DNA of 64,000 bases from Escherichia coli (GCF_016903815.1 NZ_CP069973.1); one strand, 5' to 3'. Positions 43,244 to 44,272 are shown, counted from the first letter of the stretch. Program-made: numbers and translations. The notes: a model not told the origin generated them from the letters alone.

Positions 43244-44272
43244 ATGCGCGTACTGCTATTTTTACTTCTTTCCCTTTTCATGTTATCGGCATTTTCGGCT
43301 GATAACCTGTTGCGCTGGCATGATGCGCAGCATTTCACGGTGCAAGCCTCTACGCCGCTTAAAGCCAAACGCGCATGGAAACTGTGCGCGCTTTATCCCA
43401 GCCTGAAAGATTCATACTGGTTATCGTTGAACTATGGTATGCAGGAGGCTGCTCGCCGCTACGGTGTGGATTTAAAAGTGCTGGAGGCAGGCGGCTACAG
43501 CCAGTTGGCTACCCAGCAAGCACAAATCGACCAGTGTAAACAGTGGGGCGCAGAGGCCATTTTGCTCGGTAGTAGCACGACGTCATTTCCCGATCTGCAA
43601 AAGCAGGTAGCAAATCTGCCGGTGATCGAACTGGTAAATGCTATTGATGCTCCCCACGTGAAAAGCCGCGTTGGTGTGCCCTGGTTTCAGATGGGCTATC
43701 AACCAGGGCGATATCTGGTGCAATGGGCGCACGGTAAACCACTGAACGTGCTGTTGATGCCCGGACCCGATAACGCCGGGGGCAGTAAGGAGATGGTCGA
43801 GGGTTTTCGCGCAGCCATTGCCGGAAGCCCGGTGCGTATTGTTGATATTGCGCTTGGTGATAACGATATTGAAATCCAGCGTAACCTGTTGCAGGAGATG
43901 CTGGAGCGCCATCCAGAAATCGACGTCGTTGCCGGAACGGCCATTGCGGCAGAGGCGGCAATGGGGGAAGGGCGTAACCTGAAAACGCCGCTTACCGTGG
44001 TATCGTTTTATCTGTCGCATCAGGTATACCGAGGCCTGAAGCGAGGGAGAGTCATTATGGCAGCCAGCGATCAAATGGTCTGGCAGGGGGAACTGGCGGT
44101 TGAGCAGGCCATCAGGCAATTACAGGGGCAATCGGTGTCTGATAATGTCAGCCCACCGATTTTAGTTCTGACGCCGAAAAATGCCGACCGTGAACATATC
44201 CGCCGCTCGCTGTCACCAGGGGGATTTCGTCCGGTCTATTTTTATCAGCACACATCAGCGGCTAAGAAATAA
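43244..44272 (+). CDS. torT: Periplasmic TMAO-binding protein TorT
   Basis: 342 aa with signal peptide. Confidence 0.9.

What the first reader, a model, noticed from the sequence alone, without database searches (positions are those of the whole stretch)
44245..44272. Convergent torT and torR overlap by 28 bp at their 3' ends
The last 9 codons of torT and of torR (opposite strand) occupy the same DNA. Transcription into one gene necessarily produces antisense RNA to the other, which could couple expression of the sensor-accessory protein and the regulator.
Basis: seen in the sequence. Interest (0 to 1): 0.2.

Follow-up and report, generated by a model that had tools for sequence, protein, structure and literature searches.

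The report
Known torT–torR tail-to-tail gene overlap
The last nine codons of the E. coli TMAO-sensing genes torT and torR really do share 28 bp on opposite strands, but this is a long-annotated, conserved and ordinary kind of tail-to-tail gene overlap, and nothing so far shows that it regulates anything.

Summary
torT (43244-44272, +) and torR (44245-44937, -) overlap by exactly 28 bp. RefSeq annotates the same overlap in K-12 MG1655, and the junction sequence is identical in 5,386 of 5,415 complete E. coli genomes, so it is not a sequencing error.

The overlap is made by TorT. Its conserved fold ends at Y332, and a non-conserved 10-residue tail is read off the antisense of TorR's conserved C-terminus. 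It stops at a TAA that is the reverse complement of TorR's invariant Gly-Tyr codons. Related genera show 28, 31, 21, 54 or 4 bp of overlap, or a 7-nt gap, always through changes in TorT's tail. This fits the standard stop-codon-shift origin of convergent overlaps.

It is not unusual. Five of 14 convergent junctions in this window overlap (sxy/yccS by 38 bp), and K-12 has 58-75 such pairs.

Complementary transcripts are unavoidable, and torT-torR is already listed among 165 convergent "excludons" of MG1655. Coupling of expression is untested. I found no terminator, RNA family, unusual structure or extra synonymous constraint, and published RNase III mutants do not raise torT or torR mRNA. Verdict: already known, low interest.

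The parts
43244..44272 (+). torT CDS (periplasmic TMAO-binding protein, 342 aa), stop TAA at 44270-44272
   Evidence: ORF list and translation. RefSeq annotation of the identical strain 7/2. phmmer hit to V. parahaemolyticus TorT 3o1h_B, E=1.9e-70.
44245..44937 (-). torR CDS (OmpR-family response regulator, 230 aa), stop TGA at 44247..44245
   Evidence: ORF list and translation. RefSeq annotation. Residues 1-121 match the E. coli TorR receiver-domain structure 1zgz_A, E=3.8e-73, with one difference (P45 here, S45 in 1zgz). The C-terminus aligns to the last residue with BaeR 4b09.
44245..44272 (.). 28-bp shared segment. It reads QHTSAAKK* in torT and YFLAADVC* in torR. Codon phase is (123:213), meaning the third positions of both frames coincide.
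   Evidence: Sequence. Phase and per-site variability: 9/10 shared third positions vary and 4/18 other positions vary across 14 loci.
44240..44269 (+). Codons for the non-conserved C-terminal tail of TorT (residues 333-342, [10 protein letters not shown]), which lies outside the conserved periplasmic-binding-protein fold
   Evidence: PDB homologues 3o1h_B and 4yhs_A end one residue after the position equal to Y332. In a 29-sequence alignment, conservation stops at FRPVY and the tails are unrelated, 3-24 residues. In the AF2 model the pLDDT block 331-340 averages 78 and residues 340-342 are below 50, against a mean of 89.8.
44269..44274 (-). TorR Gly222-Tyr223 codons (GGT TAT) of the conserved G-x-G-Y motif. 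Their reverse complement (ATAACC) supplies torT's TAA stop.
   Evidence: Sequence. The same relationship (TAA or TAG opposite GGT or GGC) holds in all 28-bp loci and in the distant 31-bp locus L028.
40417..43161 (-). torS (context): sensor kinase, divergent from torT. It would be read in sense by any torR transcript that ran through the whole of antisense torT.
   Evidence: RefSeq annotation. The divergent torS/torT pair is conserved in all related loci examined.
45067..49381 (+). torCAD operon (context): target of TorR, on the same strand as torT
   Evidence: RefSeq annotation.

Best explanation
This is an ordinary, evolutionarily old tail-to-tail overlap of two genuine genes. It was produced by a shift of torT's stop codon, not by selection for a regulatory device. 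Shown: TorR's C-terminus has a fixed length and is conserved (GEGY[FL][LF]..., ending 7-8 residues after the Tyr). TorT's conserved fold ends at Y332. The 10 residues after Y332 are a variable appendage, and in E. coli the last eight of them (plus the stop) are simply the antisense reading of TorR's last codons. In this frame translation must stop at the TAA or TAG that is the reverse complement of TorR's invariant Gly-Tyr codons, which sets the overlap at 28 bp (31 bp where TorR is one residue longer). Inferred: torT lost its own stop, or the short spacer was lost. For example, a 32-nt deletion between two TCAG copies converts the Edwardsiella arrangement (7-nt gap) into the E. coli one. The extension persisted because the tail is harmless. 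The third positions of both frames coincide here, so both genes keep wobble sites that can change silently. Consequences: the two mRNAs necessarily share at least 28 complementary nt, and there is no room for an intrinsic terminator, so each transcript ends inside the other gene. That is probably through Rho acting on the untranslated, mostly C-rich, G-poor antisense RNA (inferred). Low-level antisense RNA on both genes is a by-product. Any effect on TorT or TorR levels is probably small, because all three regulatory genes are weakly transcribed.
For: Reality and annotation. TorR end fixed and TorT tail variable, with overlaps of 28/31/21/54/4 bp or a 7-nt gap. TorT tail outside the fold. TorR overlapped residues lie within the part that aligns with family structures. 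torT's stop is the antisense of TorR's GY codons. The deletion model yields ...LYQATSAARK*. Any frame would stop after 21, 28 or 65 bp. No terminator, no Rfam family at E<=1, fold z-scores +0.68 to -1.42. No extra synonymous constraint: shared third positions vary 9/10 against 211/221 elsewhere in torR across genera; within Escherichia, 12% of 38-nt windows are as conserved or more. Commonness: 5 of 14 convergent junctions in the window overlap; 58 convergent overlaps in E. coli whose phase frequencies fit the stop-codon-mutation model (PMC2174442); 75 convergent overlapping pairs in K-12 (PMC4161906); 276 of 370 convergent operons give overlapping transcripts averaging 286 nt (PMC4161252). 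RNase III mutants do not raise torT or torR sense RNA (PMC7373196 Table S1c).
Against: The exact 28-bp geometry is kept across TorT divergence down to about 60% identity, and a same-phase 31-bp overlap exists at 44% identity. One could read that persistence as selection for the overlap itself. The convergent abutment of torT and torR is conserved in all 18 Enterobacterales loci from the genome scan. The direction of change (deletion or insertion) is not resolved. Absence of regulation is inferred from weak, indirect data: single-replicate RPM values at low counts, aerobic culture only, and a scrambled strand column in that table. ExcludonFinder reports that excludon pairs as a class show less single-cell co-expression and higher synteny, so a real effect at this pair cannot be excluded.
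Confidence: 0.77

Rival explanations
1. Functional excludon. Convergent transcription across the shared 3' ends makes torT and torR repress each other through polymerase collision and/or RNase III cleavage of the RNA duplex. Cleavage inside the last codons would create non-stop mRNAs. This would tune the TorT:TorR ratio. If torR read-through continues into torS, which is in sense orientation, it would also tune the TorT:TorS ratio.
For: Transcript overlap is unavoidable and has been detected (PMC12288877 Table 1). Antisense reads on torT are about 36% of sense in wild type (PMC7373196 Table S1c). No terminator separates the genes. The tight convergent arrangement is conserved in all 18 Enterobacterales loci from the genome scan. 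A comparable E. coli pair, mscL/arfA, is regulated this way (PMC10070815). Tor output is known to be sensitive to the TorS:TorT ratio (PMC6814406).
Against: There is no experiment on this pair. torT and torR sense RNA is not higher in rnc-14 or rnc-38 mutants. p19-captured dsRNA over these genes is low (5-29 RPM), and neither gene appears in the held parts of the dsRNA cleavage-site tables. All three regulatory genes are weakly expressed; torT and torS are repressed to 'exceptionally low abundance' aerobically (PMC6814406), so collisions and pairing should be rare. Synonymous sites in the overlap show no extra conservation. TorT and TorR act in the same pathway and are needed together, which is the opposite of the mutually exclusive logic of an excludon.
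Confidence: 0.15
2. Selected dual coding. The TorT tail ([10 protein letters not shown]) has a function of its own, for example in contacting TorS or in stability, and the overlap is maintained because both peptides are needed.
For: The tail sequence ...TSAAKK is nearly constant across Escherichia, Citrobacter and Providencia. Positions that are codon position 1 or 2 in both genes vary less in the overlap (4/18) than elsewhere in torR (253/444).
Against: That constancy is what TorR's conserved FLAADV forces on the opposite strand. Where TorR changes, TorT changes by the same single substitution (C230Y in TorR equals H336Y in TorT; and sequence). Outside the 28-bp clade the tails are unrelated in length and sequence. 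The crystallised V. parahaemolyticus TorT, which is solved in complex with TorS (own knowledge), ends one residue after the equivalent of Y332. The tail has reduced model confidence.
Confidence: 0.05
3. Artefact. One of the two genes actually ends earlier, through a sequencing or annotation error, so there is no real overlap.
For: None found.
Against: The junction is identical in 5,386 independently sequenced complete genomes. Both stop positions are conserved across genera. TorR's end aligns to the last residue with BaeR 4b09. There is no earlier in-frame stop in either ORF.
Confidence: 0.02

Closest known systems
Convergent (tail-to-tail) overlapping gene pairs of prokaryotes generated by stop-codon mutation (Lillo & Krakauer 2007, PMC2174442; Huvet & Stumpf 2014, PMC4161906)
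   Same: Two real genes on opposite strands share their 3' ends. The overlap length is set by the first in-frame stop on the antisense of the neighbour. There is no rho-independent terminator, which is true of about 80% of genes in E. coli convergent overlaps. It is one of 58-75 such pairs in K-12.
   Different: Nothing essential. The phase is (123:213), the least frequent of the three in E. coli (22% of convergent overlaps longer than 4 bp). The stop is supplied by a structurally invariant Gly-Tyr codon pair of the partner, which fixes the geometry over long evolutionary distances.
Convergent 'excludons' / overlapping 3' transcript ends in E. coli (Conway 2014, PMC4161252; ExcludonFinder 2025, PMC12288877)
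   Same: torT-torR is itself listed as one of the 165 convergent excludons of MG1655. Overlapping complementary 3' ends are the rule, seen in 276 of 370 convergent operons.
   Different: Here the overlap is guaranteed by the coding sequences, not by leaky or embedded terminators, so the RNA-seq call is nearly automatic. No mutually exclusive expression has been shown, and the two products work together in one pathway.
mscL/arfA convergent pair of E. coli (Morra et al. 2023, PMC10070815)
   Same: Tail-to-tail genes with complementarity that involves the 3' coding sequence of one partner. Both pairs appear in the ExcludonFinder list.
   Different: For mscL/arfA, antisense regulation and RNase III processing were shown experimentally (section headings and introduction). 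For torT/torR nothing of the kind has been tested, and rnc mutants show no increase in either mRNA.
Other convergent CDS overlaps in this same window: sxy/yccS (38 bp), appA/cspH (13 bp), zapC/ycbX and yccX/tusE (4 bp each)
   Same: Same architecture. Three of the four are also in the ExcludonFinder list.
   Different: sxy/yccS is longer. appA/cspH is strain-specific and goes with the absence of about 9 kb that K-12 has between the two genes.

Membership tests
Convergent overlapping gene pair (tail-to-tail CDS overlap) | Both partners are genuine protein-coding genes | tested here: met
   TorT matches 3o1h_B at E=1.9e-70. TorR matches 1zgz_A at E=3.8e-73. Both are annotated in RefSeq.
Convergent overlapping gene pair (tail-to-tail CDS overlap) | Opposite strands, with the 3' ends sharing nucleotides | tested here: met
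   torT ends at 44272 (+) and torR ends at 44245 (-), so 28 bp are shared.
Convergent overlapping gene pair (tail-to-tail CDS overlap) | Both stop positions are real, i.e. conserved in orthologues and not a sequencing error | tested here: met
   Identical junction in 5,386 of 5,415 E. coli genomes. The same 28-bp geometry in 14 loci of four genera plus L026/L027.
Tor TMAO phosphorelay locus (torS-torT-torR-torCAD) | Gene content and order: torS(-) torT(+) torR(-) torCAD(+) | tested here: met
   RefSeq annotation of the identical strain and of K-12.
Functional excludon (overlapping transcription that makes neighbouring genes mutually exclusive) | Overlapping complementary transcripts exist in vivo | not testable with these tools
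   Literature only: listed in the MG1655 excludome (PMC12288877), and antisense reads on both genes (PMC7373196 Table S1c). At the sequence level an overlap of at least 28 nt is unavoidable.
Functional excludon (overlapping transcription that makes neighbouring genes mutually exclusive) | Terminator of each gene embedded in the neighbour's transcription unit | tested here: not met
   No intrinsic terminator-like site lies downstream of either stop. The only two hits are inside torT, upstream of the overlap, and are at chance level. Fold z-scores are unremarkable. Termination is presumably factor-dependent.
Functional excludon (overlapping transcription that makes neighbouring genes mutually exclusive) | RNase III-dependent processing of the duplex that affects mRNA level | tested here: inconclusive
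   Published per-gene values: sense RNA of torT and torR is not higher in rnc-14 or rnc-38 than in wild type, and p19-captured dsRNA is low. Caveats are low counts, one condition, and a scrambled strand column in the table.
Functional excludon (overlapping transcription that makes neighbouring genes mutually exclusive) | Reciprocal (anticorrelated) expression of the two genes | not tested
   No per-pair data were accessible; the ExcludonFinder supplements are not held.

The most novel reading that the evidence does not exclude
The strands of the four Tor units alternate: torS(-) torT(+) torR(-) torCAD(+). With no terminator at the torT/torR junction, torR transcripts that read through antisense torT would lower torT and then enter torS in sense. 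That would shift the TorS:TorT ratio, which is known to set the mean and noise of aerobic torCAD expression. The conserved abutment, hard-wired by TorR's Gly-Tyr codons supplying torT's stop, would then be a built-in regulator-to-sensor feedback that contributes to the Tor bet-hedging behaviour.
Probability: 0.08. Interest if true: 0.45.

Novelty: already known. Interest (0 to 1): 0.1.

Why it matters
As it stands it matters little. The overlap is in the K-12 reference annotation, and the pair is already listed in a published catalogue of convergent overlapping transcripts. It is one of several dozen such pairs in E. coli.

There is one practical consequence: any insertion, tag or deletion at the 3' end of torT also alters torR, and the reverse. 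The published torT-lacZ reporter strains are all ΔtorR (PMC6814406).

The small additions made here are descriptive. The overlap is created by a dispensable-looking TorT tail, its length is fixed by TorR's invariant Gly-Tyr codons, and it interconverts with non-overlapping arrangements through small indels. It would matter for understanding noise in the Tor pathway only if uncoupling experiments showed an effect on TorT, TorS or TorR stoichiometry.

Tried and rejected
- **First literature search.** Word-start matching returned tortoise and torrent-mite papers. I repeated it with whole-word matching.
- **Papers not held.** The original torT paper (Jourlin 1996, PMC177790), Carey 2018 (Cell) and Roggiani & Goulian 2015 are not held. 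I could not check whether the original description mentions the overlap.
- **Supplements not held.** The ExcludonFinder and Conway 2014 supplements are not held, so there are no per-pair overlap lengths or transcript ends.
- **The search for homologous proteins with TorT.** The 120 hits listed were all E. coli/Shigella sequences at 98-99% identity, which was useless for diversity. It was replaced by the genome scan and the representative search.
- **A dedicated RNA element or terminator at the junction.** Rejected: no terminator, one short inverted repeat inside torT only, no Rfam match, fold z-scores within noise.
- **The codon phase (wobble on wobble) as selected to minimise mutual constraint.** Rejected after reading Lillo & Krakauer. 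This phase is the least frequent in E. coli convergent overlaps, and the phase frequencies fit a neutral stop-codon-mutation model.
- **The overlap under extra purifying selection at synonymous sites.** The 99.5% identity across E. coli looked striking next to two control 38-mers. A sliding-window test on six Escherichia sequences puts it at the 12th percentile, and across genera the shared wobble sites are saturated. Rejected.
- **Direction of evolution.** I first favoured 'overlap derived by deletion' from the Edwardsiella comparison. A distant locus with a same-phase 31-bp overlap (L028) leaves the direction unresolved.
- **Salmonella.** It was not recovered by the pattern scan, so I make no statement about it.

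Full report
**1. The observation**

The window encodes torT at 43244..44272 on the + strand. It is 342 aa and ends ...[15 protein letters not shown], with stop TAA at 44270-44272. It encodes torR at 44245..44937 on the - strand. It is 230 aa and ends ...[11 protein letters not shown], with stop TGA appearing as 'tca' at 44245-44247 on the + strand. The two reading frames share 44245..44272, which is 28 bp.

The window is identical over this region to E. coli strain 7/2, and locus coordinates map 1:1. RefSeq annotates the same two CDSs there. In K-12 MG1655 the annotation is torT 1056261..1057289 and torR 1057262..1057954, again 28 bp.

The 2-kb region is present in 5,411 of 5,426 complete E. 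coli genomes. The 38-mer spanning the overlap is identical in 5,386 of the 5,415 genomes that match. A sequencing error is excluded.

**2. Which gene makes the overlap**

I fetched 18 torT loci from species-representative genomes and extended both frames to their stops. In every one, torR lies convergent to torT and immediately downstream.

TorR always ends the same way: ...GEGY[FL]LAA[DE]V-x-stop. TorT is conserved up to FRPVY and then differs. The junction geometry follows from TorT's tail alone:

| Loci | Junction |
|---|---|
| All Escherichia, four Citrobacter, three Providencia, one locus labelled Enterobacter | 28-bp overlap |
| Serratia sp. H1w | 21-bp overlap |
| S. liquefaciens MAG | 54-bp overlap |
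| Edwardsiella hoshinae | 4-bp overlap |
| E. piscicida, E. ictaluri, E. anguillarum | 7-nt gap |

More distant relatives were reached through a search of 50%-identity cluster representatives and look-ups of the contigs that encode them:

- A TorT at 61% identity again has a 28-bp overlap (L026/L027).
- A TorT at 44% identity has a 31-bp overlap in the same codon phase (L028). Its partner is a TorR relative at 55% identity with a tail one residue longer.
- One locus has two genes between torT and a convergent torR next to torC (L024; the regulator is 57% identical to TorR).
- Two loci have no torR downstream of torT (L023, L025).

Structural evidence agrees that the TorT residues in the overlap are an appendage:

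- The solved V. parahaemolyticus TorT (3o1h) and a homologue (4yhs) both end one residue after the position equivalent to E. coli Y332.
- In a 29-sequence alignment, conservation stops at FRPVY, and the tails are unrelated and 3-24 residues long.
- In an AlphaFold model (mean pLDDT 89.8), confidence falls to 78 over residues 331-340 and below 50 for 340-342.

TorR's overlapped residues, in contrast, align to the last residue with the full-length OmpR-family structure BaeR 4b09 (GVGYRWEADAC against [11 protein letters not shown]).

**3. Why 28 bp**

In the frame torT uses, its stop TAA (TAG in some genera) is the reverse complement of TorR's invariant Gly-Tyr codons: GGT TAT reads ATAACC on the other strand. 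This holds in all 28-bp loci and in the distant 31-bp locus. It works only when the Gly codon is GGT or GGC, which is the case in all of them. E. hoshinae, where torT stops earlier, has GGA, but that is a single case.

In the other two frames torT would stop after 21 or 65 bp, and Serratia H1w uses the 21-bp frame. So once the genes abut without a spacer, an overlap of a few tens of bp is a geometric necessity.

The non-overlapping Edwardsiella arrangement converts into the E. coli type by deleting the 32 nt between two TCAG copies. That gives ...LYQATSAARK*, the same architecture as E. coli ...[10 protein letters not shown]. The direction of the change is unresolved, because a distant locus also overlaps.

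This is the stop-codon-mutation route that Lillo & Krakauer (PMC2174442) found sufficient to explain the phase frequencies of E. coli convergent overlaps.

**4. Constraint**

The third codon positions of the two frames coincide. Across the 14 loci of the 28-bp clade, 9 of the 10 shared third positions vary, and 4 of the 18 other positions vary. Single substitutions change both proteins at once: TGC to TAC gives C230Y in TorR and H336Y in TorT.

I do not claim this phase was selected. In Lillo & Krakauer's notation it is (123:213), the least frequent phase in E. coli (22%) and the least robust in their model.

I also found no extra constraint on the DNA or RNA:

- Shared wobble sites vary 9/10, against 211/221 elsewhere in torR.
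- Within six Escherichia sequences, 12% of 38-nt windows are as conserved as the overlap window or more.
- Two control 38-mers in E. coli gave 86% identical genomes (torR interior) and a rare-allele result (torT interior).

**5. Transcription**

No intrinsic terminator is predicted downstream of either stop. There is no Rfam family at E<=1 in 43000-45200. Folding energies around the junction are within shuffled expectation, with z-scores of +0.68, -1.12, +0.04 and -1.42. RNA downstream of both stops has C/G above 1 in 7 of the 8 80-nt windows on each strand, up to 1.9. That is compatible with Rho loading but is no proof of it.

Full-length mRNAs must therefore be complementary over at least 28 nt, and probably much more. 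This is already on record:

- ExcludonFinder lists torT-torR among 165 convergent excludons present in at least half of 58 MG1655 RNA-seq sets (PMC12288877). With overlapping CDSs that call is almost automatic.
- Huang et al. 2020 (PMC7373196, Table S1c) report wild-type sense/antisense RPM of 9.1/3.3 for torT and 17.8/1.8 for torR.
- In the same dataset, the sense values in two RNase III mutants (5.2 and 6.0; 12.8 and 9.2) are not higher than wild type, and p19-captured dsRNA is low.
- The caveats are low counts, one growth condition, and a strand column in that sheet that is visibly wrong for several genes.

torT and torS are repressed by IscR to exceptionally low abundance aerobically (PMC6814406), which makes collisions and RNA pairing rare. 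The Edwardsiella species with a 7-nt gap would have overlapping transcripts just the same. So the CDS overlap itself adds nothing to any antisense effect.

**6. How unusual it is**

It is not unusual.

- In this 64-kb window, 5 of 14 convergent junctions have overlapping CDSs: zapC/ycbX 4 bp, sxy/yccS 38 bp, yccX/tusE 4 bp, appA/cspH 13 bp, torT/torR 28 bp.
- Published counts for K-12 are 58 and 75 convergent overlaps.
- 276 of 370 convergent operons produce overlapping 3' ends averaging 286 nt (PMC4161252).

**7. Verdict**

The best explanation is a neutral or nearly neutral stop-shift overlap, in which a dispensable TorT tail is read from the antisense of TorR's conserved C-terminus. The closest tested analogue that does regulate is mscL/arfA (PMC10070815).

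The most novel reading not excluded is that torR read-through across antisense torT into sense torS tunes the TorS:TorT ratio and hence Tor noise. I give that about 8%.

Novelty: already known. Interest: low.

Noticed in passing
window 2512-2515, 17762-17799, 26371-26374, 37947-37959: Four other convergent CDS overlaps lie in the same window: zapC/ycbX (4 bp), sxy/yccS (38 bp, longer than torT/torR), yccX/tusE (4 bp) and appA/cspH (13 bp). In all, 5 of the 14 convergent junctions overlap. zapC-ycbX, sxy-yccS and yccX-tusE are also in the published MG1655 excludon list.
   Followed up: partly
window 36649-38159 (appA/cspH junction at 37947-37959): appA runs directly into cspH. K-12 has about 9 kb (etk-etp-gfcEDCBA, a group-4-capsule cluster, plus IS1D) between these genes, and that segment is absent here. 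appA ends ...[10 protein letters not shown] instead of K-12's ...IPACSL*, and so overlaps cspH's 3' end. This is a second, strain-specific example of a convergent overlap that goes with missing intergenic DNA.
   Followed up: partly
window 49464-50812: An IS3-family IS1397 transposase gene (programmed frameshift) sits between torD and cbpM. K-12 has no IS annotated within the roughly 150 bp between torD and cbpM (K-12 coordinates).
   Followed up: no
window 40417-43161 (torS): In Huang et al. 2020 Table S1c, wild-type antisense reads over torS (21.4 RPM) exceed sense reads (15.4 RPM), and they drop in both rnc mutants (6.3 and 10.4). The source of this antisense RNA is unknown; it could be read-through from the cspG-ymcE-gnsA side or an internal promoter. 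The strand column of that table is wrong for torS, torR, torC and torA, so the values need checking against the raw data.
   Followed up: no
window 43100-45100, especially 44000-44037: The window carries an uncommon torT allele. Only 95 E. coli records are at least 99% identical over the 2-kb region, while most are about 98%. A 38-mer inside torT matches in only 166 of 5,426 genomes. TorR, in contrast, is about 99% identical in protein even between Escherichia species.
   Followed up: no
E. coli genome collection: Six of the matches to the torT-torR region are on records labelled as plasmids, and a few genomes have two or three places. I did not examine them; they could be mislabelled replicons or genuine second copies.
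   Followed up: no
L020:4515-4568 and L017:4496-4499: The Serratia liquefaciens MAG has a 54-bp torT/torR overlap in a different frame, with TorT ending ...NVSRQKVTLAMPGDK*. Edwardsiella hoshinae has the minimal 4-bp CTAA overlap. So the junction has been remodelled repeatedly within Enterobacterales.
   Followed up: partly
window 40417-49381: The strands of the four Tor units alternate: torS(-) torT(+) torR(-) torCAD(+). As a result, read-through antisense to one gene is sense for the next gene but one (torR into torS, torT into torCAD). torT looks like a gene inserted in reverse orientation into what would otherwise be a classic regulator-kinase pair. I did not test this.
   Followed up: no
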